Shown piece by piece: positions 10,908 to 48,570 of a stretch of 64,000 nt of DNA (its first letter is position 1; every line of letters begins with the position of its first letter). The stretch is from the human T2T-CHM13v2.0 reference genome, Homo sapiens. Location of the stretch: assembly GCF_009914755.1 (NCBI RefSeq), contig NC_060946.1. One strand, given 5' to 3'. Made by a program: the position numbers and the translations under genes. A model generated the notes under the pieces. The model saw nothing but the letters and a program-made list of their open reading frames with translations, was not told the origin of the DNA and ran no database searches.

Positions 10908-10950
10908 ATTTATTTATTTATTTATTTATTTATTATTTATTTATTTATTA
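10908..10950 (-). repeat. L1 poly(A) tail converted to a (TAAA)n microsatellite
   Basis: (ATTT)n run on the plus strand between the TSD and the L1 3'UTR. Confidence 0.9.
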
Positions 10951-11151: not shown

Positions 11152-14973
<3,822 letters not shown>

Positions 14974-15036
14974 TATGATGTTAGCTGGTTATTTTGTTCG
15001 TTAGTTGATGCAGGTTCTTCCTAGTCACGATGGTCT

Positions 15037-16952: not shown

Positions 16953-16957
16953 TGGTT

Positions 16958-16970
16958 CTTCTGTCTAGTT
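16958..16970 (+). repeat. Target-site duplication of the full-length L1, right copy (CTTCTGTCTAGTT)
   Basis: Matches 10895-10907. The minus-strand context ...CATAT/AAAAACTAG is a degenerate L1 endonuclease TT/AAAA site. Confidence 0.9.
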
Positions 16971-20834: not shown

Positions 20835-20841
20835 TGCATCA

Positions 20842-21998
20842 CATAAAATCTCTAGAAGAAAACCCAGGCAATAACATTCAGGACATAGGTATGGGCAAGG
20901 TCTTCATGTCTAAAACACCTAAAGCAATGGCAACAAAATCCACAATTGACAAATGGGCTCTCATTAAACTAAGGAGCTTCTGCACAGCAAAAGAAACCAC
21001 CATCAGAGTGAACAGGAATCCTATAGAATGGGAGAAAAAATTTGCAACCTACTCATCTGACAAAGGGCTAATATCCTGAATCTACAATGAACTCAGACAA
21101 ACTTACAGGAAAAAAAACAAACAACCCCATCAAAAAGTGGGCGAATGATATGAACAGACATTTCTCAAAAGAAGACATTTATGCAGCCAATGAACAAATG
21201 AAAAAATGCTCATCTTCACTGGCCATCAGAGAAATGCAAGTTAAAACCACAATGAGATACCATCTCACACCAGTTAGAATGGTGATCATTAAAAAGTCAG
21301 GAAACAACAGGTGCTGGAGAGGATGTGAGAAATAGGAACACTTTTGCACTGTTGGTGGGAATGTAAACTAGTTCAACCATTGTGGAAGTCGGTATGGCGA
21401 TTCCTCACGGATCTAGAACTAGAAATACCACTTGACCCAGCCATCCCATTACTGGGTATATACCCAAAGGATTATAAATCATGCTGCTATAAAAGCATAT
21501 GCACATGTATATTTGTAGTGGCACTATTCACAATAGCAAATACTTGGAACCAACCTAAATGTCCAACAACGATAGACTGGATGAAGAAAATGTGGCACAT
21601 ATACAACATGGAACACTATGCAGCCATAAAAAATGATGAGTTCATGTCCTTTGTAGGGACATGGATGAAGCTGGAAACCATCATTCTCAGCGAACTATCG
21701 CAAGGACAAAAAATAAAACACCACACTTCCTCACTCATAGTTGGGAATTGATCAAAGAGAACACATGGACACAGGAAGGGAAACATCACACACAATACAT
21801 CAGGGATTGTAGTCGGGTTGGGGGAGGGGGAGGGGGAGGGATAGCATTAGGAGATATACCTAATGCTAAATGATGAGTTCTTGGGAGCAACACACAAACA
21901 TAGCACAAGTATACATATGTAACAAACCTGCACATTGTGCACATGTTCCCTAAAACTTAAATTATAATAATAATAAAAGTAAATAATTAAAAAATAAA
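20842..21998 (+). mobile_element. 5'-truncated LINE-1, L1PA4-like (ORF2 C-terminus, 3'UTR and A-rich tail)
   Basis: Fragments [16 protein letters not shown]..., [10 protein letters not shown]..., [14 protein letters not shown]...SLIVGN* (ends 21751), broken by a stop and frameshifts. The 3'UTR has older-type bases (CATTAGGAG, GCTAAATGA, AACAAACCTGCACATTG). Subfamily call is from remembered diagnostics and is approximate. Confidence 0.92.
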
Positions 21999-22011
21999 CC
22001 CAGAGCTCCAC

Positions 22012-22790
22012 AAAAAAAGAAAAAGGTTCAACTCTATGAGATGAATACATAAATCACAAATAAGTTCCTCAGAAAACTTCTGTCTACATTTTATATGAAG
22101 ATATTTCCTTTTTCACCATAGGCCTCAAAGCGCTCACAAATATCCCTTTGCAGATTCTACAAGAAAAGAGTTTCCCATCTACTCAATGAAAAGAAACATT
22201 TACCTCTGTGAGATGAATGCACACATTACAAAGTAGTTTCTCAGAAACCTTCTGTATAGTTTTTATGTGAAAATATTTCCTTTTTCCCCATAGGACGCAA
22301 AGCGCTCATAAATATCCCTTTGCTGATTCTACAAAAAGACTGTTTCCAAACTGCTCAATCAAAAGAATGGTTCAACTGTTTGAGAGGAATGCACACATAA
22401 AACAGAAGTGTCTCAGAAAGCTTCTGTCTAGTATTCATGTGAAGATATTTCCTTTCTCACCATTGGCCTCCAATTGTACACAAATATCCCTTTGCAGATT
22501 CTACAGAAAGACTGTTTCCAATATGCTAAATCAATAGAAAGGTTCAAGTCTGTGAGATGAATTCAAACATCACAGAGCAGTTTCTCAGAAACCATCTTTC
22601 TAGTTTTTCTGTGAAGATATTTCCTTTTTCACCTCAGGATTCAAAGCGCTCACAAATATCCTTTTGTAGATTCTACAAAAAGACGGTTACCAAACTGCTC
22701 AATCAAAAGAATGGTTAAACTCTGAGAGATGAATGCACATACCACAAAAAAGTTTCTAATAAATCTTCTGTCTAGTTTTTATGTGAAGAT
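22012..22790. repeat. Monomeric alpha satellite (~4.5 monomers), terminal block
   Basis: Resumes at AAAAGGTTCAACTC after the L1 and ends at ...TTTTTATGTGAAGAT. Confidence 0.93.
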
Positions 22791-25700
22791 CGGTGTGCAG
22801 TGGAATGAAATGGAATGGAACAGAATGGAAGGGAAGGGAATGGACTGGAGTGGAATGGAACAGAGTGGAGTGGAGTGGTGACCATAGGAGTGGAGTGGAG
22901 AGGAGTGGAACGGAATGTAGTGGATTTGAAAGGAATGGAATGGAATGGAGTGGAGTGGAGAGGAGTGGAGTCGAATGGAATGGAGTGGAGTGGAATGGGA
23001 TGGAGTGGAGTGGAGAGGAGTGGATTAAAGTGGAGTGGAGTGGATTGGAGTGGAGTGGAGTTGAATGGAGTGCAATGAAATGGAACAGAATGGAATGGAG
23101 TGGAAAGGAACAGAATAGAGTGGAATGGAAAGGAGTGGAGTGAAGTGGAAAGGAATGGAATAGAGTGGAATGGGATGGAGTTGAGTGGAAAGGAGTGGAA
23201 TGGAGTGAAATGGAGTGTAGTGGAATGGAGTGTAGTGGAATGGAGTGCAGTGGAATGGAATGGAATAGAATGGAATGGAATGGAATGAAAAAGAACGGAA
23301 CAAAGTGGAGTGGAGTGCAGTTGAGTGGAGTGGATCGGAGTGGACTAGAATGGAATGGAACGAAAAGGAATGGAATGGAATGGAATGGAATGGCATGGTA
23401 TGGAATGGAATGGAATGCAATGGAATGGAATAAAATGGTGAAATGTAACATGAGCTAAGATTGTGCCACTGCACTACAGTCTGGGTGACAGAGTTGCATC
23501 CAATCGAAATGAAGGAATGGAATGCAATGGAGTAGAGGGGAATGGAAGGGATTGGAGTGGAATGGAATGGAATGGAATAGAGTGGAATGGAGTGGAGTGT
23601 ATAGGAATGGAATGGAGTGGAAGGGAATGAAATGGAATGGAGTAGAATGGAATGGAAGGAAGTGGAATGGAGTATAATGGAGTGGAGTGGAATGGAGTAG
23701 AATGCAATAGAAAGGAATGGAGTGGAATTGAATGGAATGCAATTGAGTGGAATGGAGTGGAGTGGAGTGCAGTGGAATGGAGTGGAATGGAGTGGAGTGG
23801 AATGGAATCGACTGGAATGGAATGGAATGGTACAGAATGGAACGGGACAGAGTAGAATGGAGTGGAGCTGAGTGGAGTGTAGTGGAGTTGAATGGAGTTT
23901 AATGGAGTGCAGTGGAATGGAATGGAATGGAGGGGAGTGGAGTGGAGTGGGGTGGAGTGGAGTGGAGTGGAGCGGAGTGGAGTGGACTGGAATGGAGTAG
24001 AATGGAGTGGAATGGAATGGAGTGGAGTGGAATGGAATGGAAAGGAATTGAATGGAACGGAATGGAATGGAACAGAAGGGAATGGAGTGGAGTGGAGTAG
24101 TGTGGAGTTGAGTGTAGTGGATTGCAGTGCAGCTGAAAGGAATGGAAGGGAAAGGAATTGAATGGAGTGGTGTGGAATGGAATGGAATGGAATGGAATGG
24201 AATGGAAAAGATTGGAGTGGATTGGAGTGGAGTGGAATGGAGAGAACTGGAAACTGATGGAATGGAATGGAGTGGAGTAAGGTGGAGTGGAGTGGAATGG
24301 AATAAAATGGAAAGAAATGGAATGGAATGGAATGGAATGGAATGGAATGGAATGGTGAAATGTAATGTTAGCTAAGATTGTGTCACTGCACACCAGTCTT
24401 GGTGTCAGAGTGAGATCCAATCGAAATAAAGGAATGGAATGGAATGGAGTAGAAAGATATGGAAAGGAGTGGATGCGAATGGAAAGGAGTGGAATTGATT
24501 GGAGTGGAGTGGAGTGGAGTGGATTGGAATGGAATAGAGGGGAGTGGAGTGGAGTGGAATGGAGTGGAAAGGAGTGAAATGGAGTGGAATGGAATGGAGT
24601 GGAGCGGAATGGAATGGAGTGGAATGGAAAGGAATGGTACGGAATGAAATGGAACAGAATGGAACGTATTGGAAAAGAGTGAAGTGGAGTGGATTGGATC
24701 ACAGTTGAAAGAATGGAATGAAATGGAATTAGATGGAGTGGAGTGGAATGGAATGGAATGGAATGGAGTGGAGTGGAGTGGAGTGGAATGGAGAGAACTG
24801 GAAACAGATGGAATGGAAAGGAGTGGAGTGAAGTAGAGTGGAGTGGAATGGAGTAGAATGGAATGGAATGGAATGGAATGGAATGGAATGGAATGGAATG
24901 GTGAAATGTAATGTTAGCTAAAATTGTGTCACTTTACTCCAGTCTGGGTGTCACAGTGAGATCCAATCGAAATAAAGGAATGGAATGGAATGGAGTAGAA
25001 TGGAATGGAATGGAATGGAGTGGATAGGAATTGAACAGATTGGAATGGAGTGGAGTGGAGTGGATTGGAATGGAATGGAGGGGAGTTGAGTGGAGTGGAT
25101 TGGATTGGAATGGAATGGAGGGGAGTGGAGTGGAGTAGATTGGATTGGAATGGAATGGAGGGGAGTGGAGTGGAGTGAAGTGGAATGGAGTGGAAACGAG
25201 TGAAATGGAGTGGAATAGAATGGAGCAGAATGGAACGGAATGGTAAGGAATAAAATTGAATGGAATGGAACGTATTCAAGTGGAGTGCAGTGGAGTTGAG
25301 TGGAATGGAATGGAGTGCAATTGAATAGAATGGAATGGAACGAAATTGAAAGGAGTGAAGTGGAATGGAATGGAATGGAATGGAGTGGATTGGAGTGGAG
25401 TGGAGTGGAGTGGAATGGAGAGAACTGGAAACTGATGGAATGGAATGGAGTGGAGTGAAGTGGAGTGGAGTGGAATGGAACATAATGGAAAGGAATGGAA
25501 TGGAATGGAATGGAATGCAATGGAATGGAATGGAATGTTGAAATGTAATGTTAGCTAAGATTGTGTCACTGCACTCCAGTTTGGGTGTCAGAGTGAGATC
25601 TAATCCAAATAAAGGAATGGAATGGAATGGAGTAGAATGGAATGCAATGGAGTGGATTGGAATGGAACGGAGTGGAATGGAGTGGAGTCGAGTGGATTGG

Positions 25701-28700
25701 AATGGAACAGAGGGGAGTAAAGTGGAATGGAGTGGAAAGAAGTGAAATAGAGAGGGATGGAATGGAATGGAGGGGAATGGGACTGAACAGTATGGAACGA
25801 AATGGAATGGAATGGAAGGTATTGGAGTGGAGTGCCGTGGAGTTGAGTGGAGTGGATCAGAGTGTAGTGGAATGGAGTAGAATGGAATGGAATTGAGTGG
25901 AGTGGAGTGGAGTGAGTGTAATGGAATGGAATGGAGTTGAAAGGAATGGAATCGTGAAATGAAATGAGAGCTAAGACTTCGCCACTGCACTCCAGTCTGG
26001 GTGACAGAGTGAGATTCAGTTGAAATAAAGGAATCGAATGGAATGGAATAGAATAGAATGGAACGGAGGGGAGTGGAGTGAAGAGCGGTGGATTGGAGTG
26101 GAATGGAGGCGAATGGAATGGAGTGGAGTGGAATGGAATGGAATGGAACAGAGTGGAATGGAATGGAATGGAACAAAGTTGAGTGGGGTGGAGTGTAGTT
26201 GAGTGGAGTGGATCGCAGTGGACTGGAATGGAATGGAATGGAATGGCATGGTATGGAGTGGAGTGGAGTGGAGTGGAGTGGAATGGAATGGAATGGAATG
26301 CAACGGAATGGAATGGAATGTTGAAATGTAATGTGAGCTAAGATTGTCCAACTGCACTACAGTCTGGGTGACAGAGTTACATCCAATCGAAATAAATGAA
26401 TGGAATGGAAAGGAGTAGAGTGGAATTGAATGGGGTGGAGTGGAATGGAACGGAATGGAAAGGAGTGGAATGGAGTGGAGTGGACAGTAATGGAAAGGAG
26501 TGGAATGGAGTGGAGAGGAATGGAGTGGAAGGGAATGAAATGGAATGGAGTAGAAGGGAATGGAATGGAATGGAATGAATTGGATTCGAGTATAATGAAA
26601 TGGAGTGGAGTGGAATGGACTGTATTGGAATGGAGGGGAATGCAGCGGAATGTAATGGAGTGGAATGGAATGGAGTGCAATTGAGTGGAAAGGAATGGAG
26701 TGCAGTGGAGTGGAGTGCAGTGGAATTGAGTGTAATGGCGTGGAATGGAGTGGAAAGGAATGTAGTGGAGTGGAATGGAGTGGAGTGGAATGGAATGGAA
26801 TGGTACAGAATGGAACGGAACAGAATAGAATGGAGTGGAGTTGAGTGGAGTGTAGTGGAGTTGAGTGGAGTGGACCAGAGTGCAGTGGAATGGAATGGAG
26901 TGGAGTGGAGTGGAATGGAGTAGAATGGAGTGGAATGGAATGGAGTGTAGTGGAATGGAATGGAATAGAACGGAATGGAATTGAAAGGAATGGAACGGAA
27001 GGGAAAGGAGTTGAGTGAACTAGTGTGGAGTTGAGTGGAGTGGATTGGATTGCAATTCAATGGATTGGAATGGAATGGAGTGGAGTGGAATGGAATGGAA
27101 TGGAATGGAATGGAATGGAATGGAATGGAATGGAATGGATTTGAGTGGAGTGCAGTGGAGTGGAATGGAGAGAACTGGAAACTGACGGAATGGAACAGCG
27201 TGGATTAAAGAGGAGTGGAGTGGAATGGAATGGAATGGAATGGATTGGTGAAATGTAATGTTAGCTAAGATTGTGTCACTGCACTCCAGTCTGGGTGTCA
27301 GAGTGAGATCGAATCAATATAAAGGAATGGAATGGAACAGAGTAGAATGGAATAGAATGGAATGGATGGAAATGGAAAGGAAGTGGAATGGAGTGGGGTG
27401 GAGTGGATTGGAATGGAATGGAGGGGAGGGGAGTGGAGTGGAGTGGTAAGGAGTGGAAAGGAGTGAAATGGAATGGAATGGAATGTAGTGGAGTGGAAAG
27501 GAATGGAGTGGAAAGGAACACAACGAAACGAAATGAAATTGAATGGAATGTATTGGAGTGGAGTGCAGTGGAGTTGAGTGGAATGGATTGGAGTGCAAGT
27601 GAATGGAATGGAATGGCATGGAGTGGAATGGAATGGAATGGAATGGAATGGAATGGAATGGAATGGATTCGAGTGGAGTGGAGTGGAGAAGTGGAATGGA
27701 GAGAACTGGAAACTGAGGGAATAGAATGGAGTGGAGTGAAATGGAGTGAAGTGGAATGGAATAGAAGGGAAAGGAAAGGAATGGAATGGAATGGAATGCA
27801 ATGGAATGGAAGGGAATGGAATGGTGAAATGTAATGTTAGATAAGATAGTGTCACTGCACTCCACTCTCGGTGTCAGAGTGAGATACAATCCAAATAAAG
27901 GAATGGAATGGAATGGAATACAATGGAATGGAATGGTGTGGATGGGAATGGAACGGAGTGAAATGGAGTGGAATGGAGGAGAGTGGATTGGAATGGAACG
28001 GAGGGGAGTGGAGTGGAGTGGAGTAGAATGGAGTGGAAAGGAGTCGAAAGGAGTGAAACGGTGTGGAATGGAATGGAGTGGTGTGGAATGGAATGGAGGG
28101 AAAAGGAACAGAACGTTACAGAATGAAATGGAAAGGAATGGAAAGTATTGGAGTGGAATGCAGTGGAGTTGAGTGGAGTGGAGTGGAGTGATAAGGAGTG
28201 GAAAGGAGTGAAATGGAATGGAAAGAAATGTAGTGGAGTGGAAAGGAATGGAGCGGAAAGGAACACAACGAAACGAAATGAAATGGAATGGAATGTATTG
28301 GAGTGGAGTGCAGTGGAGTTGAGTGGAGTGGATTGGAGTGCAAGTGAATAGAAAGGAGTGGAGTGGAATGGAATAAAATGGAATGGAATGGAATGGAATG
28401 GAATGGAATAGAATGGAATGGAATGGAATCGATAGGAGTGCAGAGGAGTGGAGTGGAGTGGAATGGAGAGAACTGGAAACTGATGGAATGGAATGGAGTG
28501 GAGTGAACTCTGGAGTGGAGTGGAATGGAATATAATGGAAAGGAATGGAATGGAATGGAATGGAATGGAATGGAATGGAATGGAATGGAGTGGTGAAATG
28601 TAATGTTAGCTAAGATTGTGTCACTGAACTCCATTCTGGGTGTCAGAGTGAGATCCAAACCAAATAAAGGAATGGAATGGAATGGAGTAGAATGGAATGG

Positions 28701-31700
28701 AATGGAGTGGATGGGAATGGAACAGAGTGGAATGGAGTGCAGTGGAGTGGAGTGGATTGGAATGGAATGGAGGGGAGTGGAGTGGAGTGGAATGCAGTGG
28801 AAACAAGAGAAATGGAGTGCAATGGAATCGAGTGGAATGGAACGGAAAGGTATGGAACAAAATGGAATAGAATGGAACGTATTGGAGTGGTGTGCAGTGG
28901 AGTTGAGAGGGGTGGATCAGAGTGCAGTGGAATGGAATAGAATGGAATGGAATGGAGTGGAGTGGAGTCGAGTGCAATGCAGTAGAATGGAGTGGAATGG
29001 AATGGAATGGAGTGGAGTGGAATGGAAAGGAATGGAATGGAATGGAATGGAAGGGAACAGAGTGGAGAGGAGTGGAGTGGATTTGAGTGGAGTGGATCGG
29101 AGTGCAGTGGAATGGAATGGAGTGGAGTGGAGTTGAATACAATGGAATGGTGTGGTATGGAATGGAATAGAGTGGAATAGAATATAATGGAGGGAAGTGG
29201 AATGTAATGTAATGTAACATAACGGAAAGAATGGAATGGAATGGAATGGAATGAAATGGAATGGAATGGATTGGAATGGAGTTGAATGGAATCAGTGGAT
29301 TGGAATGGAGTGGAGTGCAGTGGAACAGAGTGGAGTGAAGTCGAATGGAATGGAGTGGATAGAAATGGAGTGGAGTGGAGTGTAATCGAATGGAGTGGAA
29401 TGGAATGGAGTGGAGTGGAGTTGTGTGGAGTGGATCTGATTGCAGTGGAATGCAATGGAATGGAATGGAATGGAGGGTAGTGGAGCGGAGTGGAATGGAG
29501 TGGAATGCAATGTAATGGAACGTAATGGAATGGAACGAAACGGAATGGAATGAAACGGAATGGAAAGGAGTGGAGTGGAGTGCAGTAGAGTGTAGTTGAG
29601 TGGAATGGATCGGAGTGCAGTGGCCTGGATTGGAATGGAATGGAGTGGAGTGGAATGGAATTTAATGGAATGGAGTGGATTGTAGTGGAGGGGAGTTTAG
29701 TGGAGTGGAGTGGAATGGAATGGAGTGAAGTAGAATGGAATGGAGTGGAGAGGAGTGAAGCAGAGGGGAGATGAGTGGAGTGGAGTGGAATGGAATGAAA
29801 TGGATTGGAGTCGTGTGGAGTGGAAAGGAATGGAATGGAATGGAATGCAATGGAATGGAAAGGAATGGAATGGAATGGAACTGAATGGTGAAATGAAATG
29901 TGAGCTAAGATTGTGCCACTACACTCCAGTCTGTGTGACAGAGTGAGATACAGTAGAAATAAAGGAATGGAATGGAAGGGAGTAAAATGGAATGGAATGG
30001 AGTGGAGTGGAATGGAAAGGAATGGAACGCAGTGGAGTGGAGTGTAACGGAGTGGAGTGGAATGGAGTGGAGTGGAATGGTCTGGAGTGGAATGGAATGA
30101 TATGGAATGGAATGAAGTGGAATTGAGTGGAGAGGAGTGTAATGGAGTTTAGTGGAATGGACTGCAGTTCAATGGAGTGGAATGGAGTGGAATGGAATGG
30201 AGTGGAATGGAATGCAGTGGAATGGATTGGAGTGGAATGGAGTGGAGTGGAATGGATTGGAGTGGAGTGGAATGGAACGGGATGGGAGGGAACAGAACAG
30301 AATGGAATGGAGTCGAGTGGAGTGCAGTTGAAAGGAGTGGAGTTCAGTGGAGTGGATTGGAGTGCAGTGGAATGGAATGGAATGAACTGGAGAAGAGTGG
30401 AGTGGAATGGAGTGGAGTGGATTTGACTAGAGTGGATCACAGTACAGTGGAATGGAACGGAGTGGAATGGAAAGTAATGGAATGGAGTGGAGTGGATTGG
30501 AGGGGAATGCAGTGGGATGTAGTGGAATGGAATGGATTGTAGTGGAATTGAATGGATTGGAATGGAATGGAACGGAAGGGAAGATAATGGAAGAGAATGG
30601 ACTGGAGTGGAGTGGAATGGAGTGGAGTGGAGTGGATTGGAATGCAGTGGAATGTAATGTAATGTAATGGAATGGAATGGAATGGAATGGAATGGAGTGG
30701 AGTGGAATGGAATGCAATGGAGAGGAGTGGAATGGAGGGGAGTGGAGTTGAGTGGAGTGGAATGGAGTGTAATGGAGTGGAATGGAGCGACATGGAGTGG
30801 AGTGGAGTGCAATAGAATGGAGTGGAGTTGAATGGAATGGAATGGAACAGAATGGAATGGAATGCAACGGAATGGAAAGGAATGGAACAGAACGGATTGG
30901 AGTTGAGTGGAGTTGATGGGGTTGATCGTAGTGCATTGGAATGGAATGGAATAGAATGGTGTGGAGTGCAGTGCAGTAGAGGGGAGTGGACTGAAGTGGA
31001 ATGGAGAAGAATGCAGTGGAATGGAATGGAGGGCAATGGAATGGAATGGAATGAAATGGAACAGAATGGAATGGAAAGGAACAGAATGGAATGGAAAGGG
31101 ACAGAATGGAATGGAACAGAAGGGAACAGAGTGGAATGGAGTGGAGTTGAATGGAAATGAGTGGAGTGGATCAAAGTGCAGTGGAATGGAATGGAATGGT
31201 ATGGAAAGGAATGGGATAGGATGGGATGGGATGGAATACAATGGAATTGGATGGGGATGGAATGGAGTGCAGTGGAATGGAGTGGTGTTGAGAGGAATGG
31301 AATGGAATGGAGTGGAATGGAGTTTAGTGGAATGGAATGGAGTGGAGTGTGTGGAGTGGAGTGGATCTGAGTGCAGTGGACTGGAATGGAATGGAATGGA
31401 AAGGAATGGAATGGAGTGGAGTGGAATGGAATTTAACGGAAAGGAGTGGAGTGGAGTGGATTGAAGTGAAGTCGAATGGAATGGAGTGGAGTGGAATGGA
31501 ATGGAATGCAATGGAATGAAATAGAATGGCGTTGAGTGGAATGAAATAGAGTCGACTGGAGTGGAGTATAATGGAGTGGAGTTCAGGGGATTGGAGTGCA
31601 GTGGAGTGGAGTGGAGTAGAAGAGAGTGTGATGGAATGGAATGGAATGGAAAGGAATGCAATGTAATGGTGAAATGAAATGAGAGCTAAGATTGTGCCAG

Positions 31701-37700: not shown

Positions 37701-40700
37701 GGAATGGAATTTAATGGAATGGAGTGGAGTGGAGTGGATTGAAGTGGAATCGAATGGAATGGAGTGGAGTGGAATGGAATGGAATGCAATGGAATGGTGT
37801 GGAGTGGAATGAAATGGAGTCGAGTGGAGTGGAGTAGAATGGAGTGGAGTGCAAGGGACTGGAGTACACTGGAGTGGAGTGGAGTAGAAGGCAGTGTCAT
37901 GGAATGGAATGGAATGGAATGGGAATGAATGCAATGTAATGGTGAAATGAAATGAGAGCTAACATTGTATCAGTGCACTCCAGTCTGGGTGACAGAGTGA
38001 GATCCAGTTGAAATAAAGGAATGGAATGGAATGGAGTAAAATGCAATGGCATTGAGTTGTGTGGAAAGGAATGCAGTGGAAAGGCGTGGAGTGAAGTGGA
38101 TAGGAGTGGAGTGGAATGGAGTGGAGAGGAATGGAGTGGAACAGAGTGGAATGGATTGAAATGGAGTGTATTGGAGTGAACTGGAATGAAATGGAGTGGA
38201 ATGGCGTGGAAAAGAGTGGAATGGAATGGAGTGGAGTGGAATGGAATGGAGAGGACTGGAGTGGAATGGAATGGAATGGAGTGGCGTGGAGTGGAATGGA
38301 ATGGAGTCTAGTTGAGTGGAGTGGAATGGAGTGGATTGCAGTGGATTGGAATGCAGTGCAGTGGAGTGGAGTGGAACGGAATGGAATGGAATGGAATAGA
38401 TGGGAATGGAATGGAACGGAATGCTATGGAATGGTGAAACGAAATGTGAGCTAAGATTGTGCCACTGCACTCCACTCTTGGAGACAGAGTGAGATCCAGT
38501 CGAAATAAAGGAATGGAATGGAATGGAGTAAAATGCAATGGAATAGATTGGTGTGGAATGGAATGGAATGGAACGGAGTGGAGTGGAGTGGAATGGAGTG
38601 GAGAGGAATGGAGTGGAGTGGAATGGTGTGGAGTGGATTGGTGTGGAGTGCAATGGAATTGTATGGAATGGAATGAAGTGGAATGGAGTGGAGAGGAGTG
38701 TAATGGAGTTTATTGGAATGGAGTGCAGTGCAATGGAGAGGAATGGAATGGAATGCAATGCAGTGGAATGGATTGGAGTGGAATGGAGTGGAGTGGAATG
38801 GCATGGAGAGGAATGGAATGGAATGGGACTGAAGGGAACGGAACGGGAGGGAATGGAGTGGAGCAGAGTGGAGTGGAAAGGAGTGGAGTTGAGTGGAGTG
38901 GATCAGAGTGCAGTGGAATGGAATGGAAAGGAAGGGAATGGAATGAAGAGGAGAGGAGTGGAGTGGCATGGAGTTTAGTGGAGTGGATTTGAGTGAAATG
39001 GATAGCAGTGCAGTGGAATGGAATGGAACGGAATGGAATGGAACGGAATGGAATGGAAGAGTGCAGTGGAGTGGAGTGGAGGGGAATGGAATGGAATGTA
39101 TTGGAATGGAATGGATTGTAGTGGAATTGAATGGAATGGATTGAAATGGAATGGAAGGGAATGGAATGGAATGGATTGGAGTGGAGTGGAATGGAGTGCA
39201 GTGGAGTTGAGTGGAGTGGATGAGAGCAGTGGAATGGAATCTAATGCAATAGAATGGAATGGAATGCAATGGAATGAAGTGGAGTGGAATGGAATTCAAT
39301 GGAGTGAAGTGGATCAGATTTCAGTGGAATGGAATGAAATGAAATGAAGTGGAGAGGAGTGTAGTGGCATGGAGTTTAGTGGAGTGGATTTTAGTGGAGT
39401 AGATCACAGTGCAGTGGAATGGAATGGAATGGAATGGAATGGAATGGAATGGAGTGGAGTGGAGGGCAATGGAATGGAATGTAGTGGAATAGAATGGATT
39501 GTGGTGGAATTGAATGGAATAGAATGAAATGGAATTGAAGGGAACAGAATGGAATGGAACTGATTGTAGTGGAGTGGAATGGAGTGGAGTGGAGTTGAGT
39601 GGAGTGGATCTGAGTGCAGTTGAAGGGAATCTAATGGAATGGAATGGAATGGAATGGAATGCAATGGAATGAAGTGGAGTGGAATGTAATGCAATGGAGT
39701 GGAGTGGAGTGGAGAGCAGTGGAGTGGAGTGGAGGGCAGTGGAGTGGTGTGGAGGGGAATGGAGTGGAATGGAGTGAAATGGAGCGGCGTGGAGTGGAGT
39801 GGTGTGCAATAGAATGGAGTGGAATGGAATGGAATGCAACGGATTACAGTAGAGAGGAGTTGATGGAGTTGATCGGAGTGCATTGGAATGGAATGGAATG
39901 GAATGGATTGGAATGGAGTGCAGTGGAATGGAATGGAATGGAGTGGAGTGCAGTGGAAAGGAGTTGAATGGAATGGTGAAATAAAATGTGAGCTAAGATT
40001 GTGCCACTGCAGTCCAGTCTGGGTGACAGAGCGAGATCCGGTCGAAATAAAGGAATGGAATGCAATGGAGCAGAAGGGAATAGAATGGAGTGGAGTGGAA
40101 TGCAATGCATTGGAATAAAGTGGAATGGAGAGTAAAGGAGTGGAATGGAAAGGAGTGGACTGGAATGGAATGGAATGCAGTAGAATGGAATGGTATGGAA
40201 TGGAGTGGAGTGGAATGGCATGCAGTAGAGTGCAGTGGAGTGGAATGGAGAGCAGTGGAAGGAGTGGAGTGGAATGGAATGGAATGGAGTGGCATGGAAT
40301 GGAATGCAATGGAGTGGAATGGAATGGATTGGAGTGGAATGGAATGGAGTGCAGTGTAGTGGAGTGGAGTGGAGTGGAATGAAGGGGAATGGAGTCGAAT
40401 GCAGTGAAATGGAGAAGGGTGGACTGGAGTGGAGTGGAATGTATTGGAGTGGAATGGAACAGAATGGTGCGGAAATGAAAGAAATAGATCTCAATGGAGT
40501 GGAGTGGAGTGCAGTTCTGTGGAGTGGATGGGAGTGCAGTGAAATGGAATGGAGTGTAATGGAATAGAGTGGAGTGGACTGCAGTGCAGTGGAGTGGAGT
40601 GGAATGGAGTGGAATGTCGCTGAATAGAATACAGTGTAATGGAATGCAATGAAATAGAACGAAATGGAAAGGAATGGAATGGAATGGAATGGAACGGAAT

Positions 40701-43700
40701 GGAATGGAACGGAAAGAAACGGAGTGGAGTGGAGTGGAGTTGATTGAAGTGGAACGGAGTGAACTGGAATGGATGGAATGGAATTGATTGGAATGGAGTG
40801 GAGTGGAGTGGATCAGATCGGAGTGCAGTGGAATGGAATGGAATGGAATGGAATGGATTGGAGTGGGGTGTAGTGGTGTGGAATGGCGTAGAATGCAGTG
40901 GAATGGAACAGAGTGCATTGGAATGGAATGGAATGGAACGGAATGGAATGGAATGGGAAGGAATGGAATGGAATAGAAGGGAACAGAGTGGAATGGAGTG
41001 GGGTTGAGTAGAGTTGAGTAAAGTGGATCAAAATGTAGTAGAATGGAATGGAATGGAAGGGAAGGGAATTGAATGGAATGGAGTGGAGTGGAGTGGAATA
41101 GAGTGGAGTTGAGTTTAGACGAATGGAGTGGAATGCAGTGGAATGGAATGGAGTGGAGTCAAACGAAAGGAATGGAATGGAATAGAGTGGAACGGAGTGG
41201 AGTGGAGTGGTGTGCAATGGAGTTGAGTAGCATGGAGTAGAGTGGAAAAGAGAGGAGTGTAGTGCAGTGGAGTTGAGTGGATTGGATCGGAGTGCAGTGG
41301 AATGGAATGGAATGGAATAGAGTGGAGTGGAGTGGAATCGAGTGGAGTGGAGTGTAGTCGAATGGAGTGGAATAGGTTGGAATGGAATGGAGTACATTCG
41401 AATGGAATCGAATTGAACGCAATGGAATGGAATGCAAAGGAATGTAGTGGAATGGAACAGAATCGAGTGGAGTGGATTGGATTGGAGTTGAGTGGAGTGG
41501 ATCAGAGAGCTGTGGAATGGAATGGTTTGAATGGAATGGAATGGAAGGGAAAGGAATGGAATGGAATGGTGAAATGAAATGTGAGCTAAGATATTGTTAC
41601 TGAACTCCAGTCTGGGGGTCTGAGTGAGATCCTTTCGAAATAAAGGAATGGAATGGAGTAGAATGGAAAGGAATGCAGTGGAATGTAATGGAATGGAGTG
41701 GAACAGAGTGAAGTGGGGTCGAATGGAGTGGAGTGGAATGGAGTGCAGTGGAATGGATTGGAAAGGAGTGGAATGGAATGGAATATCATGGAGTGGAATG
41801 GAATGGTATGGAGTGGAGTGGAATGGAATGGAGTGGAATGGAATGGAACGGAACAGAATGGAATGGAACGGAATGGAACGGAATGGAGTGGAGTGGAATG
41901 GAATGGAGTGGAATGGAATGGAACGGAACAGAAAGGAATGGAATGGAATAGAATGGACTGGAGTGTTGTGAAGTTGAGTGGAGTGGACCGGACTTCAGTG
42001 GAATGGAATGGAATGAAATGGAATGGTATGGAGTGGAGTGGACTGGAGTGGAATGGAGTGGAATTGAGTGGAGTGGAGTGGAGTGGAATGGAATGGAGTG
42101 CAGAGGAATGGAATGAAATTGAATGGAATGCAATGGAAAGAAACGGAGTGGAATGGAATGGAACAGAAAGGAGTGGAGTGGAGTGCAGTTGAGTGGATTG
42201 TATCAGAGTGCAGTGGATATGGAAGGGAATGGAATGCAATTGAATGGAATTGAATGGAATGGAATGGAATGGAATGGAATGGAATGGAATGGAATGGAAT
42301 GGAATGGAATGGTGAAATGAAATGTGAGCTAAGATTTTGCCACTGCTCTCCAGTCTGGGTGACATAGTGAGATCCAGTCAACATAAAAGAATGGAATGGA
42401 GTGGAGTAGAAAGGAATGGAATGGAGTGGAGTGGAATGGAGTGGAATGGAGTGGAGTGGAGTGGAGTGGAGTGGAATGGAGTGGAATGGGATGGAGTGGA
42501 GAGGAATGGAATGAAATTGAATGGAATGCAATGGAAAGGAACAGAGTGGAATGGAATGGAACAGAAAAGAGTGGAGTAGAGTGCAGTTGAGTGGATTGTA
42601 TCAGAGTGCAGTGGATATGAAAGGGAATGGAATGCAATTGAATTGAATGGAATGGAATGGAATGGAATGGAATGGAATGGTGAAATGAAATGTGAGCTAA
42701 GATTTTGCCACTGCACTCCAGTCTGGGTGACAGAGTGAGATCCAGTCAACATAAAGGAATGGAATGGTGTGGGGTAAAAAGGAATGGAATGGAGTGGAGT
42801 GGAATGGAATGGAGTGGAAAGGAGTGAAGTGCAGTGGAATGGAGTGGGGTGGAATGGAGTGGAATAGAGTGGAATGGAAGGGAGTGGAAAGGAATTGAAG
42901 GGAGTGGAAAGGAGTTCTGTGGATTGGAGTAGAGTGGAGTGGAATGGAGTAAGAGGAATGGAGCAGAATGGAGTGAAATGCAATGGAATGGAAAGGAATG
43001 GAATGGAATGGAATGGAATGCAATGAATTGGAGTGGAGTGGACTGGAGTGGAATGCAGTGAAATGGAGTGGAGTGGAAAGGAGTTGAGTGGAATTAAAAG
43101 GAGTGGAATGGAACGAAATGGAAAGGATTGGAACGGAATGGAAAGGACTGCAGTTGTGTGGAGAGGAGTGGAGTGGAGTCGATCAGAATGCAGTGGAATG
43201 GAATGGAGTGGAATGGAGTGGATTGGAATGGAATGGTGTGGAGTGGAATGGAGTTGAGTGGAATGGAATGGAATTGAGTGGAATGGAATGGAGTGGAATG
43301 GAGTGGATTGGAATGGTATGGTGTGGAGTGGAATGGAGTGGAGTGGAATGGAATGGAACGGAATGGAATGGAAAGGAACAGAATGGAATGGAACGCCACG
43401 GAACGGAGTGGATTGGAGTGGATTTGAGTGGAATCGATCAGAGTGCAGTGGAATGGAATGGAATGGAGTGGAATGGAATGGAGTGGAGTGGAGTGGAATG
43501 TAGTGGAATGGTGTGAAGTGTAATGGAATGGAGTGGAATAGAATGGAATGGAATGGAATGGAATACAAAGGAGCAGAATGGAAAGGAATGCAACATAATT
43601 GAGTGGAGTGGAGCCGAGTTGAGTGGTGTTGAGTGGCATGGTTGGGATTGCCGTGTAATGGAATGGATTGGAATGGAATGGAAAGGTGTGTACTGGAATA

Positions 43701-46700
43701 GAGTGGAGTGGATTGGAGTGGAATGGAAAGGACTGGAAAGGAATGGAATGCAATGGAATGCAACGGATTGGAATGGAAGGGAATTAAATGGTGAAATGAA
43801 ATTGGAGCTAAGATTGTGCCACTGCACTCCAGTCTGGGTGACAGAGTGAGATCCAGTTGAAATAAAGGAACGGAAAGAAACGGAGTAGAATGGAATGGAA
43901 TGGAGAGGATTGGAAAGGAAAAAAGTGGAATGGAGTGGAGTGAGATGGAATGGAGTGGAGTGGAATGGATTGGAGTGGAAAGGATGGGAATGGAATGGAA
44001 TGCAATGGAATGGAATGGAGTGGAATGGGGTGGAATGGAGTGTAATGGATTGGTACGGAGTGGAATGGAATGGAATGGAGTAGAAAGGAGTGGAGTGTTA
44101 TGCAATGGAGTGGAGTAGCATGGAGTGGAGTGGAATGGAGTGGAGTGGATTGGAGTGGAGTTGAGTGGATTGGATTGAAGTGCAGTGGAATGCAATGGAT
44201 TGGAATGGAATGGAATGCAATGGAATAGAAGGGAGTGGAGTGGAGTGGAGTGTATTGGAATAGAGTTGAGTGGAGTGGAGACGAATGGAGTGGAATGGGG
44301 TGGAATGGAATGGAGAGGAGTCAAATGGAAAGGAATGGAATGGAATGGAGTGCAATGGAGTGGAATGGAGTGGAGTCAAATGGAAAGAAATGGAACGGAA
44401 TGGAGTGCAATGGAGTGCAAAGGAGTGGAATGCAGTGGAATGGAGAGGAGTGGTGTGCAATGGAGTGGAGTGGAAAGGAGTGGAGTGGAGCAGAGTTGAG
44501 TGGATTGGATGGCAGTGCAGTGGAATGGAATGGAATGGAATGGAATAGATTGGAGTGGATTGGAGAGGAATAGAGTGGAGTAGAGTGGAGTGGAATGGAG
44601 TGGAATGGGGTGGAAAGGAATGGAATGCATTTGAATGGAATCGAATGGAACGGAATGGAATGGAATGCAAAGGAATGTAGTGGAACGGAACAGAATGGCG
44701 TGGAGTGGATTGGAGTGGAGTTGAGTGGAGTGGATCGCAGAGCTGTGGAATGGAATGAAATTGGATGGAATGGAATGGAAGGGAAAGGAAAGGAATAGAA
44801 TGGTGAAATGAAATGTGAGCTAAGATTGTGTTACTGAACTCCAGACTGGTTGGCAGAGTGGGATCCTTTAGAAATAAAGGAGTGGAATGGAATGGAGTAG
44901 AATGGAAAGGAATGAAGTGGAGTGTAACGGATTGGAGTGGAGTGGAGTCGAATGGAGTGGAGGGAAATGGAGTGGATTGGAATGGATTGGAAAGGAGTGG
45001 AATGGAATGGAATATCAAGGAGTAGAATGGAATCGAATGGAGTGGAGTGGAATGGAGTGTAGTGGAATGGAGTGGAGTGGCTTGTAGTGCAATGGAGTGG
45101 AATGCCATGGAATGCAATGTAATGTAATAGAGTGGAATGGAATGGACTAGAGAGGAATGGAGTGGTGTGGATTGGAATGCAGTGGAGTGGAATGGATTGT
45201 AGTGTAATGGAGTGGAATTGAGTGGAAGTAAATGGAGTGGAATGGAGAGGAAAGGAAAGAATGGAGTGGAATGAAATGGAGTGGAGTGGAGTGGAATGCA
45301 GTGGCATACAGTGCAGTGTAATTGAGTGGAATGGAATGGAACGGAATGGAATGTAAAGGAAGGGAATGGAAAGGAATGTAGTGGAGTGGAGTGGAAAGGA
45401 GTGGAGTGAAATGGAATAGAGTGGAAGGGAACAGAATGGAACGGAGTGTAGTAGAGTGGATTGGAATAGAGTTCAGTGGAGTGGATTGGACTGCAGTGGA
45501 ATGGAATGGAATGGAATGGTATGGAGTTGAGTGGAGTGGAGTTTAGTGCAATGGAGTGGAATGGAGTGGAGTGGAGTGGAGTGAAATGGGGTGGAATGGA
45601 ATGGAGTAGAGTGGAATGCAATGGAATGGAATGGCATGGAATGGAAAGGAGTGGAAGGGAATGGAGTGGAGTGGAGGGGAGTGTAATAGAGTGGAGTGGA
45701 GTGGAATTGAGTGGAATGGAATGGAGTGGAATAGAGTGGAATGGAATGGAACGGATTGTAATGGAAAGGAACAGAAAACAACGGAGTGGAGTGGAGTGGA
45801 AAGGAATGGAGTGGAATAGAATGGAATGGAATGGATCTGATTGGAATGAAAAGGAACGGAGCAGAACGGACTGGAGTGGAGTGGAATGGAAAGGAGTGGA
45901 GTGTAATGGAATGGAGTATGATGGTATGGAAGGGAACAGAAGGGAATGGAATGGAATAGAACGGAGTGTAGTAGAGTGGATTGGATTGGACTTGAGTGCA
46001 GTGGATCGGACTGCAGTGGAATGCAATGGAATGGAATGGTATGGAGTCGAGTGGAGTGATTTTTATTGGAGTGGAGTGGAATGGAGTGGATTGGCACGGA
46101 GTGGAGTTGAATGGAGTGCAATTGAGTGAAATGGAATGGAATGGAGAGGAATTGAATGAAGTGGAACCGAAAGAAATGGAATGTAACAGATTGGAATGGA
46201 ACAGAACAGAATGGAGTGGAGTGGAGTGGAGTTGATTGCATCGGAGTGCAGTGGAATAGAATGGAATGCAATGGAATGGAATGGGATGGAATGGAATGGC
46301 ATGGAATGGCTAAACGAAATGTGAGTTAAGATTGTACCACTGGACTCCAGTCTGGGTGACATTGTGAGATCCAGTCGAAATAAAGGAATGGAAAAGAGTA
46401 GAAAGGAATAGAATAGAGTGGAGTGGAATGGAATGGAGTAGAGTGCAGTGGAATGGAGTTTAGTGGAAGGGAGTCAATTAGAATGGAGTGGAATGGAGGG
46501 GAATGGAAAGGAGTGGAATGGAATGGATTGGAATGGAGTGGAGTGGAGGGGATTGGAGAGGAATGGAGTGGAATGGAGTGGAATGTAGTGAAATAGAGTG
46601 GAGTGGATAGCAGTGCAATGGAACATAATGGAGTGGAATGGAACAGAATGGAATGGAATGGAAAGGATTGCAGTGGAGTGGAGTGGAGTTGAGTGGAGTG

Positions 46701-48570
46701 GAGTGGAGTTGAGTGGAGTGGATCGGAATGCAGTGGAATGGAATGGAATGGAAGGTAGTGGAGTGAAGTGGAGTGGAGTGGAATGTAGTAGAATGGAATG
46801 GAATGGAATGGAACGGAATGGAATGGAGTGGAGTGGAGTGGAATGTAGTGGAATGGAATGGAGTGGAATGGAAGGGAAAGGAACGGAATGGAATGGAACA
46901 GAATGGAATGGAATGGAATGGAATGGAACCCAATAGAACAAAGTGGAGTGGAATGGAGTGGTGTTGAGTGGAGTGGATTAGATTGCCATGGAGTGGAATG
47001 GAATGAAATGCAATGGAATGGAAAGGAGTGTAGGGAAAAGGAGTGGAGTGGAGGACATTCGAAAGGAATGGAATGGAATGGAATGGAATGGAATGGAATG
47101 GAATGGAATGGAATGGAAACGTGAACTGAAATGTGAGCTAAGATTGTGCCACTGCACTCCAGTCTGGGTGACAGAGAGGGATCCAGTCGAAATAAATGAA
47201 TGGAATGGAATGGAGTAGAATGGAAGGGCATGGAGTGGAGTGGAATGGAATGGAGGGGAATGGAGTGGAGTGGAGTCCAATGCAGTGTAGTAGAAAGCAG
47301 TGGAATGGAATGGAATAGAGTGGAGTTGAATTGCATGGAGTGGAATGAGTGGAGGGGAGTGGAATGGAGTGGAGTGGAGGGGAAATGAATGGACTGGAGT
47401 GGAATGGAGTGGGTTGGAATGGAGTGGAATAGAGTGGAATGGAATGGATTGGAGGAGGATGGACTGGAATGGAGTGGAGGAGGATGGACTGGAATGGACT
47501 GGAGGAGGATGGACTGGAATGGAGTGAAATGGAATGGAATGGAATGGAATGGAATAAGGTTGAATGGAATGGAACGAAATAGACCGGAACGGAATGGAAT
47601 GGAAAGGAGTGGAGAGGAGTTGAATGAAGTTGAGTTTAATGGATCAGAGTGCAGTGCAATGGAATGGAATGGAAGGGACTGGAATGGAGTGAAGTGGAGT
47701 GGATTGGAGTGGTGTGTACTGGAGAGGAGTGGAGTGGATGGGAGTGCAGTGGAGTGGAGTGGAATGGAGTGAAGTGGAATGCAATGGAATGGAATGAAAT
47801 GCAACGGAATCGAATGGAATGGAATGGAACAGATGAAACTGATTAGAGAAGAGTGTAGTGGGGTGGAGTGGAGAGGAGTCAAGTGGAACGGAATGCGATG
47901 GAATGAACTGGAATGGAATGGAATGGAGTGGAATAAAATGGAATGGAATGGTGAAATGAAATGTGAGCTAAGAATGTGCTACTACACTACTGTGCGGGTG
48001 ACAGATTGAGATCCAGTTGAAATAAAGGAATGTAATGGAATGGAGTAGAATGGAATGGAATGGAGTGGACTGGAATGGAATGGAGGGGAATGGATTGGAG
48101 TGGAGTGGAATGGAGTGGATTGGAATGGAGTGGAGTGGAACGGAGTGGAATGGAGTGGAATGGAATGGAATGGAGTGGAATGGAATGGAATGGAGTGGAA
48201 TGGAGTGGAGTGGAATGGAGTGGAGTGGAATGGAGTGAACTTGAGTGGAACAGAATGGAGTTTAGTGGAGTGCAGTGGAGTGGAATGGAATGGAATTCAG
48301 TGGCATGCAATGGAACAGAATGGAACAGAATGGAACGGAGTGGAGTGGAGTGGAGTGCAGTGTATCGGAGTGCAGTGGAATGGAATGAAGTGGAATTGAA
48401 TGGATTTTAGCAGAGTTGAGTGGAGTTTAATGTAGTGGAGTGGAATGGAGTGTAGTGGAGTGGAGTGGAATGGAGTGGAACAGAAAGGGGTGGAATGGTA
48501 CTGAATGGAGTGGGGTCGAGTGGAGTGGAATGGAGTGGACTGCAATGCAGTGGAATGGAATGGAATGGAA
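22791..48570 (+). repeat. Human satellite 3-like (GGAAT/GGAGT)n array, domain A (cassette-containing)
   Basis: Degenerate pentamers GGAAT, GGAGT, GCAGT, GGATT, TGAGT. The plus strand is G/A-rich and C-poor throughout. Confidence 0.92.
23438..48027 (+). repeat. 27 dispersed copies of a ~77-bp Alu-3'-end-derived cassette within the satellite
   Basis: Consensus GTGAAATG(T/A)AATGTGAGCTAAGATTGTGCCACTGCACTCCAGTCTGGGTGACAGAGTGAGATCCAGTCGAAATAAAG. Starts at about 23438, 24355, 24901, 25538, 25954, 26321, 27248, 27824, 28593, 29888, 31669, 32251, 33342, 34638, 35564, 36840, 37942, 38434, 39976, 41569, 42312, 42680, 43791, 44803, 46309, 47121, 47951. Confidence 0.92.

What the first reader, a model, noticed from the sequence alone, without database searches (positions are those of the whole stretch)
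23438..48027. Satellite built from a fixed 77-bp Alu-tail cassette separated by variable-length pentamer spacers
Seen: 27 co-oriented copies of a length-invariant ~77-bp non-pentamer cassette, with starts 367-1781 bp apart, separated by GGAAT/GGAGT tracts. Its 49-nt core GTGAGCTAAGATTGTGCCACTGCACTCCAGTCTGGGTGACAGAGTGAGA aligns to the Alu right-arm end GTGAGCCGAGATCGCGCCACTGCACTCCAGCCTGGGCGACAGAGCGAGA with 7 differences, 6 of them at CpG sites. All copies share the same two breakpoints and largely the same substitutions, and none has a TSD. Inference: one old, CpG-decayed Alu fragment was amplified as part of a composite satellite unit, rather than 27 independent insertions. Alu-containing units are established for HSat1B, but HSat3 is usually described as simple (CATTC)n. 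I cannot say whether this subfamily is already annotated.
Basis: partly seen in the sequence, partly recalled or inferred. Interest (0 to 1): 0.8.

Follow-up and report, generated by a model that had tools for sequence, protein, structure and literature searches.

The report
Alu-tail fragment amplified inside HSat3 satellite
A 77-base piece made of the last 64 bases of one old Alu element was copied along with the surrounding GGAAT satellite on human chromosome 22p and many other chromosomes; it is real, but this kind of satellite structure is already noted in print.

Summary
The window holds 27 co-oriented, length-invariant 77-nt cassettes, 367-1781 bp apart. They are the only non-pentamer islands of 40 nt or more in the GGAAT/GGAGT satellite.

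Each cassette is 13 nt of variant pentamers plus the last 64 nt of an Alu right arm. Genomic Alus fetched here align to it only from the first Alu base onward.

- The same junctions recur in 326 satellite copies sampled on 11 chromosomes.
- The CpG sites all carry the same TG decay product.
- Satellite copies separate from dispersed Alus on one branch.

The cassette is not special to this window. A 39-mer across the 5' junction hits 1,423 places genome-wide. The window carries a derived variant, here called type II. A 96%-identical paralog 1.36 Mb away shows no indels in cassettes and 132 in spacers, so pentamer slippage explains the fixed cassette and variable spacers.

The cassette evolves at the same rate as the non-satellite flank, so nothing suggests function.

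Two T2T preprints already state that HSat3 units include old TE fragments and that HSat3 on Y and the acrocentrics is intermingled with Alu fragments. Novelty is therefore low.

The parts
22801..48100 (+). HSat3-type pentamer array (GGAAT/GGAGT on the + strand) that carries the 27 cassettes; GC 0.46
   Evidence: TRF reports period 5 from 22801. GGAAT is 57.9 and GGAGT 42.4 per kb. GC and skew shift at about 22-23 kb and about 48 kb.
23437..23513 (+). cassette 1 (13 nt variant pentamers + 64 nt Alu tail)
24354..24430 (+). cassette 2
24900..24976 (+). cassette 3
25537..25613 (+). cassette 4
25953..26029 (+). cassette 5
26320..26396 (+). cassette 6
27247..27323 (+). cassette 7
27823..27899 (+). 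cassette 8
28592..28668 (+). cassette 9
29887..29963 (+). cassette 10
31668..31744 (+). cassette 11
32250..32326 (+). cassette 12 (used as the query for genome and locus searches)
33341..33417 (+). cassette 13
34637..34713 (+). cassette 14
35563..35639 (+). cassette 15
36839..36915 (+). cassette 16
37941..38017 (+). cassette 17
38433..38509 (+). cassette 18
39975..40051 (+). cassette 19
41568..41644 (+). cassette 20
42311..42387 (+). cassette 21
42679..42755 (+). cassette 22
43790..43866 (+). cassette 23
44802..44878 (+). cassette 24
46308..46384 (+). cassette 25
47120..47196 (+). cassette 26
47950..48026 (+). cassette 27 (last copy; the array changes character just after it)
48101..64000 (+). 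second pentamer domain without any cassette; GC 0.42; more TGAAT. Context, not part of the composite.
18001..44255 (.). stretch shown to be duplicated at chr22:10,186,144-10,217,136 (95.9-96.6% identity). It takes in the alpha-satellite flank and 22 of the 27 cassettes.

Best explanation
This is a passenger Alu fragment inside a pentamer satellite, with no sign of a function of its own.

How it arose:
1. One Alu of the type whose right arm ends like the S/Y forms came to lie in a (GGAAT)n tract, sense strand on the GGAAT strand. Only its last 64 nt, including a 7-nt A-rich remnant, were kept. (Inferred.)
2. Its CpGs had already decayed to TpG before copying began. (Inferred from the uniform TG in copies.)
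3. The fragment, two variant pentamers on its 5' side, and an adjoining pentamer tract were amplified together by unequal exchange. This produced arrays of 'cassette + n pentamers'. (Shown by shared junctions and by flanks kept in register.)
4. Spacers then drifted in length by slippage in 5-nt steps. The cassette has no internal periodicity, so it cannot slip and stays 77 nt. (Shown in a paralog comparison.)
5. Blocks of the array were spread within chr22p and between acrocentric short arms, chr3, 4, 9, 20 and Y by large duplications or ectopic exchange. (Shown for several pairs at 94-97% identity.)
6. The window belongs to a derived lineage, here called type II, with four fixed substitutions and roughly twice the spacing of the older dense lineage, type I.
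For: Alu identity. The cassette aligns at 77-88% with the 3' ends of repeated elements in four euchromatic 10-kb loci. Elements in locus L009 hit Rfam Metazoa_SRP at E down to 7e-16, in left-arm and right-arm pairs, so the comparators are Alus.

Shared 5' junction. Alignment starts at query positions 1-5 in 315 of 326 satellite copies. It starts at 13-15 in 26 of 27 dispersed Alus, at 26 in the other, and never upstream of 13.

Shared 3' junction. Alignments reach query position 70 or beyond in 324 of 326 satellite copies.

Genome-wide spread. The 39-mer across the 5' junction, at up to 3 mismatches, hits 663 forward and 760 reverse places; the reversed control hits 0. Places listed lie on contigs 3, 4, 9, 13, 14, 15, 20, 21, 22 and 24.

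Inherited CpG decay. At five CpG-derived sites the 22 dispersed Alus mix CG, TG and CA. Cassettes carry TG in 146-176 of 193 type I copies and, at four of the sites, in 98-105 of 122 type II copies. The fifth site is TA in 110 of 122 type II copies.

Tree. The 98 sampled satellite copies sit on one side of a branch against 22 dispersed Alus, SH-aLRT 92.7.

Polarity. Type I reads G, C, T, G at columns 8, 31, 53 and 61; type II reads A, T, A, T. Alus have C at column 31 in 21 of 22. The window is A-T-A-T in 23 of 27 copies.

The unit is longer than the cassette. Column conservation stays at 0.8 or more from about -60 to about +130 nt around it.

Slippage. Against the chr22:10.19 Mb paralog, cassettes show 8 mismatches in 1,782 nt (0.45%) and 0 indels. 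Spacers show 328 in 19,137 nt (1.71%) and 132 indels; 33 of these are 5 nt long, and 13 of the 15 indels of 10 nt or more are multiples of 5. The alpha-satellite/L1 flank shows 25 in 4,893 nt (0.51%) and 3 indels. In type I arrays, 110 of 186 spacings equal 77 + 5n.

Spread by duplication. chr14 9.07 Mb matches chr22 11.87 Mb at 96.2% over 9.6 kb. Loci on chr3, chr13, chr14 and chr15 match at 95.5-96.7%. chr13 13.2 Mb matches chr14 6.22 Mb at 94.2% and chr21 10.2 Mb at 93.7%.
Against: - The tree rests on 64 columns and its key branch is not starred.
- The comparison loci were picked from the best pattern matches, so they are not a random sample of HSat3.
- No modal unit length exists, either in type I arrays (150-500 bp) or in the window. 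The window also shows no single higher-order period: best partners at 90% or more lie at offsets of 368, 769, 3055, 4238 and 6183 bp. The 'unit' is therefore loosely defined.
- Copies differ from their group consensus by 9.0% (window), 9.9% (type II) and 12.1% (type I). That looks old for the AluY label used in print and is not explained here.
- Whether the fragment began as a 5'-truncated insertion or as a full Alu later cut down cannot be told. A TSD cannot be assessed in pentamer flanks.
- Part of the excess mismatch in spacers may be an alignment artefact around 5-nt shifts.
- No ape genome was available, so timing is inferred only.
Confidence: 0.9

Rival explanations
1. The cassette spread on its own into pre-existing pentamer arrays, by gene conversion or templated patch insertion, rather than being amplified together with its spacer.
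For: Spacings are very irregular: 367-1781 bp in the window and 150-500 bp in dense arrays. Neighbouring cassettes are often not each other's closest relatives.
Against: Flanks stay in register well beyond the cassette, from about -60 to +130 nt. Spacing follows 77 + 5n in 110 of 186 type I intervals. Whole multi-cassette blocks with matching spacing patterns are duplicated. Irregular spacing is explained directly by the observed 5-nt indels in spacers.
Confidence: 0.05
2. The cassette is kept at fixed length because it is functional, for example as a protein-binding or transcript-punctuating element in HSat3 chromatin or RNA.
For: It is strictly length-invariant in 27 of 27 window copies. It has no indels between paralogs where spacers have 132.
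Against: Its substitution rate between paralogs (0.45%) equals that of the alpha-satellite/L1 flank (0.51%). Copies differ from consensus by 9-12%. Five RNA folds of three copies, three on the + strand and two on the - strand, give z-scores from +0.2 to -2.0 with inconsistent structures. A sampled 10 kb of the chr9 HSat3 array holds 1,115 GGAAT words and no cassette. A non-repetitive insert is expected to resist slippage without any selection.
Confidence: 0.04
3. These are 27 independent Alu insertions attracted to HSat3 (insertion preference).
For: A 2026 preprint reads the high Alu count in HSat3, about 81 per Mb, as an insertion pattern (passages seen).
Against: All copies have identical truncation points, orientation and shared substitutions. 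TG appears at every CpG-derived site, where independent Alus show a CG/TG/CA mix. There is no left arm and no Alu sequence upstream of the junction in any of the 27 copies.
Confidence: 0.01

Closest known systems
HSat3 arrays 'intermingled with Alu fragments' on chrY and the acrocentric short arms (T2T-Y preprint 10.1101/2022.12.01.518724; passages seen)
   Same: The chromosomes agree: cassettes found here lie on contigs 13, 14, 15, 21, 22 and on contig 24 at 11.0-11.2 Mb. The Y copies share the type II states with the acrocentric ones. The lack of local homogenisation also agrees.
   Different: The passages I saw give no breakpoints, cassette length or copy number, and they report no clustering by subgroup. 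Here the copies fall into two clear haplotypes tied to array type, dense versus sparse. Further sites turn up on contigs 3, 4, 9 and 20. That paper's figure and supplements were not visible to me.
[quoted passage not shown]
   Same: It cites Bandyopadhyay et al. 2001 on acrocentric satellite III subfamilies.
   Different: No anatomy is given in the passages seen. The cited 2001 paper and the supplement are not held, so I cannot say whether this cassette is drawn there.
HSat1B (DYZ2), a ~2.5 kb unit with one old Alu-derived subunit per repeat (described)
   Same: A single old Alu piece is fixed in a satellite unit and amplified with it.
   Different: HSat1B has a regular, highly homogenised unit (most copies over 98% identical) and a much larger Alu part. 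Here only 64 nt of Alu remain, the spacing is irregular, and copies are 9-12% from consensus.
Nested tandem repeats of HSat3, such as the ~3.6 kb DYZ1 unit
   Same: Pentamer satellite organised into longer units. Dense type I arrays on chr3, 13 and 15 show best-partner offsets of 4.4-5.1 kb.
   Different: The window's own array shows no single period.

Membership tests
Alu SINE (fragment of) | Sequence homology to the 3' end of the right arm of 7SL-derived ~300-bp dimeric elements | tested here: met
   The cassette aligns at 77-88% with 27 dispersed elements in four euchromatic loci, always from the first Alu base of the cassette onward. Elements in L009 hit Rfam Metazoa_SRP at E down to 7e-16. 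The cassette alone gives no Rfam hit.
Alu SINE (fragment of) | A-rich tail at the 3' end | tested here: met
   Columns 58-64 are A-rich (6 of 7 A in the consensus) and align with the poly-A of dispersed Alus. The pentamers resume directly after them.
Alu SINE (fragment of) | Complete dimer with left arm (internal promoter) | tested here: not met
   Only 64 nt are present. Upstream sequence is pentameric in 27 of 27 copies. This is a dead fragment, not an element.
Alu SINE (fragment of) | Target-site duplication flanking an insertion | tested here: inconclusive
   Both flanks are pentamer variants that resemble each other regardless.
Human satellite 3 (HSat3) | Array built on the GGAAT/CATTC pentamer | tested here: met
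   TRF reports period 5. GGAAT is 57.9 and GGAGT 42.4 per kb. Outside the cassettes only 10 short non-pentamer islands exist.
Human satellite 3 (HSat3) | Pericentromeric or acrocentric short-arm setting next to alpha satellite | tested here: met
   171-bp alpha-satellite monomers run up to 22,790 and the pentamers start at 22,801. The hub places the window at chr22:8.80-8.87 Mb.
Human satellite 3 (HSat3) | Interspersed 10-mer said to mark classical satellite 3 (motif recalled from memory, not from a tool) | tested here: not met
   There are 0 hits on either strand in 22.8-64 kb; the recalled satellite 2 motif also gave 0. This test is weak, because the motif is recalled and may not apply to every subfamily.
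Human satellite 3 (HSat3) | Assignment to one of the 11 named HSat3 subfamilies (A1-A6, B1-B5) by the published k-mer classifier | not testable with these tools
   Neither the classifier nor the CenSat track is available here.
Composite, TE-containing satellite unit (as in HSat1B) | The same TE fragment with the same breakpoints and orientation in every unit | tested here: met
   27 of 27 window copies. Among 326 sampled copies, 315 share the 5' junction and 324 reach past the Alu part. Orientation is uniform within every locus.
Composite, TE-containing satellite unit (as in HSat1B) | Regular unit length or homogenised higher-order repeat | tested here: not met
   Spacing is 367-1781 bp. No single period appears, and median nearest-neighbour identity is 0.88.

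The most novel reading that the evidence does not exclude
The 77-nt cassette is a single-origin marker. It unites a subset of HSat3 arrays on at least ten chromosomes (3, 4, 9, 13, 14, 15, 20, 21, 22, Y) and excludes others, such as the sampled core of the chr9 array. With Alu as the outgroup it orders them: an older dense lineage (type I, median spacing 346 bp) and a derived sparse lineage (type II, which includes this window and chrY).

Its copy number is roughly 3,600 by extrapolation: 1,423 hits, with 130 of 326 sampled copies passing the same filter. That is close to the number of Alu annotations implied for HSat3 in print, about 81 per Mb over 47.6 Mb. If so, the reported 'Alu enrichment' or 'insertion preference' in HSat3 would be mostly one fragment counted thousands of times.
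Probability: 0.45. Interest if true: 0.35.

Novelty: already known. Interest (0 to 1): 0.2.

Why it matters
The cassette matters mainly as bookkeeping and as a tool. Counts of Alu 'insertions' in HSat3 should not be read as insertion events if most are copies of one amplified fragment.

A fixed, non-slipping 77-nt landmark with two diagnostic haplotypes gives a simple handle for three tasks:
- aligning otherwise unalignable pentamer arrays;
- tracing exchanges among acrocentric short arms, chrY and several pericentromeres;
- measuring pentamer slippage against an internal neutral control.

It does not reveal a new kind of element or a function.

Tried and rejected
Searches and tests that gave nothing:
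- Rfam on the array (23-48.5 kb) and on a single cassette gave no SRP or Alu-related hit, only chance matches with E of 0.3 or more. The fragment is too short for the model, so Alu identity was established through genomic Alus instead.
- RNA structure: five folds of three cassettes gave z from +0.2 to -2.0 with no shared structure. Rejected.
- I tested whether the cassette supplies the array's TCGA sites. Only 13 of 50 lie in cassettes. Dropped.
- Recalled diagnostic 10-mers for satellites 2 and 3: 0 hits.
- A single modal unit length in dense arrays: none.
- A megablast self-comparison of the array at 84% identity or more and 400 nt or more found no internal duplicates.

Runs that failed:
A smaller request of 4 was granted. 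As a result Yq12/DYZ1, chr15 D15Z1 and most of chr9 were not sampled.

Literature:
- Searches for a printed description of the cassette found only the general statements cited above.
- Altemose 2014 (PMC4022460) and the 2021 review PMC8125562 have 0 occurrences of 'Alu'. The T2T repeat preprint has 0 of 'HSat3'.
- The older satellite III papers of Choo 1990, Choo 1992 and Fowler 1987 are not held, nor is the journal version of the centromere paper.
- Bandyopadhyay 2001 was seen only as a reference entry.
- bioRxiv supplements are closed, so a fuller description may exist there.
- The store of earlier findings was not open.


Full report
**Observation**

A BLAST with one 130-nt copy returned 28 rows that span the core. 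I dropped one row (27099-27219, 69% identity), a pentamer-only alignment beside the copy at 27260. That leaves 27 copies.

True core starts are 23450 to 47963. The starts printed are one base too high. Spacings are 367-1781 bp. The copies align without gaps across the cassette.

A scan of 22.8-64 kb for sequence unlike (GGAAT)n found 37 islands of 18 nt or more. All 27 islands of 40 nt or more are the cassettes.

**Anatomy**

Each cassette is 77 nt: 13 nt of variant pentamers, two of them of the GAAAT type, followed by 64 nt of non-pentamer sequence. Ordinary GGAAT pentamers resume directly after it.

The array starts at 22,801, directly after 171-bp alpha-satellite monomers. It changes character after the last cassette at about 48.03-48.1 kb: GC drops from 0.46 to 0.42, TGAAT rises from 2.2 to 9.8 per kb, and no cassettes follow.

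**Is it Alu?**

Rfam does not recognise the cassette itself. I therefore fetched four euchromatic 10-kb stretches of the same assembly.

- They hold 27 elements that align to the cassette at 77-88% identity.
- The alignment starts at the first base of the 64-nt part in 23 of 27, within 2 nt in 3 more, and never upstream of it.
- In locus L009 these elements are paired hits to Rfam Metazoa_SRP, E down to 7e-16. The best hit ends exactly where the cassette alignment lies. They are Alus, and the cassette matches the end of the right arm plus the start of the A tail.

Against a panel of 22 of these Alus (5 of the 27 were dropped for aligned spans under 46 nt), the window consensus differs in the 49-nt core at seven positions. 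Six lie in five CpG dinucleotides where the panel mixes CG, TG and CA. The subfamily cannot be resolved from 64 nt; the AluY label in print was not tested here.

**One origin**

A 39-mer across the 5' junction hits 663 forward and 760 reverse places in the assembly at up to 3 mismatches. The reversed control hits none. The places listed lie on contigs 3, 4, 9, 13, 14, 15, 20, 21, 22 and 24.

In the window plus 20 satellite loci of 10 kb I collected 326 copies.

- 315 of them align from query positions 1-5, so they include the same 5' leader.
- 324 extend past the Alu part into the same 3' pentamers.
- Orientation is uniform within every locus, and always Alu-sense on the GGAAT strand.
- At the five CpG-derived sites the copies carry TG almost uniformly, where independent Alus show both decay products. 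The decay was therefore inherited, not parallel.

A tree was built from 22 dispersed Alus, all 27 window copies, all 11 chr20 copies, and random samples of 30 of 193 type I and 30 of 95 other type II copies, on 64 columns. It puts all 98 satellite copies on one side of a branch, SH-aLRT 92.7, not starred. This is modest support on a short alignment; the junctions are the stronger argument.

**Two lineages**

Four columns (8, 31, 53, 61) split the copies into two haplotypes.

- Type I reads G-C-T-G. It is the commonest haplotype (13-19 of the 25-29 copies per locus) in dense arrays on chr3 95.5 Mb, chr4 49.5 Mb, chr9 76.7 Mb, chr13 5.1 Mb, chr14 1.44 Mb, chr15 1.64 Mb and chr22 12.46 Mb. Median spacing is 346 bp.
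- Type II reads A-T-A-T. It is found in the window (23 of 27), chr22 10.2 and 11.87 Mb, chr13 13.2 Mb, chr14 6.2 and 9.07 Mb, chr15 14.25 Mb, chr21 10.2 Mb and chrY 11.0-11.15 Mb. Median spacing is 776 bp.

One chr20 locus holds a type II run followed by a type I run. Alus share C at column 31 with type I, so type II, and with it the window, is derived.

A 10-kb sample of the chr9 array at 60 Mb has 1,115 GGAAT words and no cassette.

**Why the cassette is fixed and the spacers vary**

The window from 18,001 to 44,255 has a paralog at chr22:10.186-10.217 Mb, in two aligned blocks of 96.6% and 95.9% identity. Over the 22 cassettes covered:

| Region | Mismatches | Aligned nt | Rate | Indels |
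|---|---|---|---|---|
| Cassettes | 8 | 1,782 | 0.45% | 0 |
| Pentamer spacers | 328 | 19,137 | 1.71% | 132 |
| Alpha-satellite/L1 flank | 25 | 4,893 | 0.51% | 3 |

Of the 132 spacer indels, 33 are 5 nt long, and 13 of the 15 that are 10 nt or longer are multiples of 5. Some of the short gaps and extra mismatches in spacers are probably alignment debris around 5-nt shifts.

In type I arrays, 110 of 186 spacings equal 77 + 5n. Conservation in register extends from about -60 to +130 nt around the cassette, so what was amplified was longer than the cassette.

The simplest reading is unit amplification followed by pentamer slippage. A non-periodic insert cannot slip. The cassette's substitution rate matches the neutral flank, and RNA folds are unremarkable, so nothing suggests constraint or function.

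**Spread**

Multi-cassette blocks are shared between chromosomes at 94-97% identity:

- chr14 9.07 Mb with chr22 11.87 Mb, 96.2% over 9.6 kb;
- loci on chr3, chr13, chr14 and chr15, 95.5-96.7%;
- chr13 13.2 Mb with chr14 6.22 Mb (94.2%) and with chr21 10.2 Mb (93.7%).

Within the window no single period exists and close relatives are often not neighbours.

**What is known**

[quoted passage not shown] 2001 (passages).
[quoted passage not shown] It adds that Y and acrocentric copies cluster together, without local homogenisation (passages).

In the text I could see I did not find the fixed junctions, the 77-nt length, the two haplotypes or the copy number. The supplements and the older satellite III papers were not available, so they may be there.

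A 2026 preprint counts about 81 Alus per Mb in HSat3 and speaks of insertion patterns. With 47.6 Mb of HSat3 that is about 3,900 Alu annotations. My rough extrapolation for the cassette is about 3,600: 1,423 hits, with 130 of 326 sampled copies passing a nearly identical 39-mer filter, shifted by two bases. The sample is biased, so this is a lead, not a result.

**Verdict**

The finding is a real, correctly interpreted and well-defined structure. It is an instance of something already stated in print and shows no sign of function. Interest is low. The residual value lies in the cassette as a phylogenetic and alignment landmark, and in the caution it implies for TE counts in satellites.

Noticed in passing
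window 8-10913, 16958-20834, 22022-22790: Divergent alpha satellite: 171-bp monomers with 76-79% matches, and a 343-bp dimer period scoring equally. It abuts the pentamer array at 22,801. The stretch 20,835-22,021 between two of the blocks was not identified.
   Followed up: partly
window ~10,900-16,960, minus strand: An L1 element about 6 kb long interrupts the alpha satellite. Pfam hits are to the L1 ORF1 domains (E 3e-63) and to the endonuclease and reverse transcriptase of ORF2. The reading frames are broken into several pieces.
   Followed up: partly
window 48101-64000: A second pentamer domain with no cassettes, lower GC (0.42 against 0.46) and more TGAAT (9.8 against 2.2 per kb). It is probably a different HSat3 subfamily joined to the cassette-bearing one.
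   Followed up: partly
window 18001-44255 and G000:C22:10186144-10217136: A large intrachromosomal duplication, 1.36 Mb apart and 95.9-96.6% identical, covers the alpha-satellite flank and most of the array. The paralog has about 4.75 kb extra between the two aligned blocks. Its full extent was not mapped.
   Followed up: partly
L021 (G000:C20:31685001-31695000): A junction of the two cassette lineages within one 10-kb stretch. Five sparse type II copies (positions 1724-7035) are followed by six dense type I copies (7816-9436).
   Followed up: no
L012, L016, L020 (chr3 95.5 Mb, chr13 5.1 Mb, chr15 1.64 Mb): Dense type I arrays show best-partner offsets of 4.4-5.1 kb between cassettes. This suggests a nested higher-order unit of about a dozen cassettes.
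   Followed up: no
L022 (G000:C21:10217001-10227000), about 7318-7710: Three partial or rearranged cassette matches lie close together, covering query 22-81, 13-76 and 1-35. This is unlike the intact copies elsewhere.
   Followed up: no
L009 (G000:C22:30000001-30010000): Dispersed Alus also give sub-threshold Rfam hits to the miRNA families mir-1268, mir-3135 and MIR841. All are below gathering score and presumably reflect Alu-derived models.
   Followed up: no
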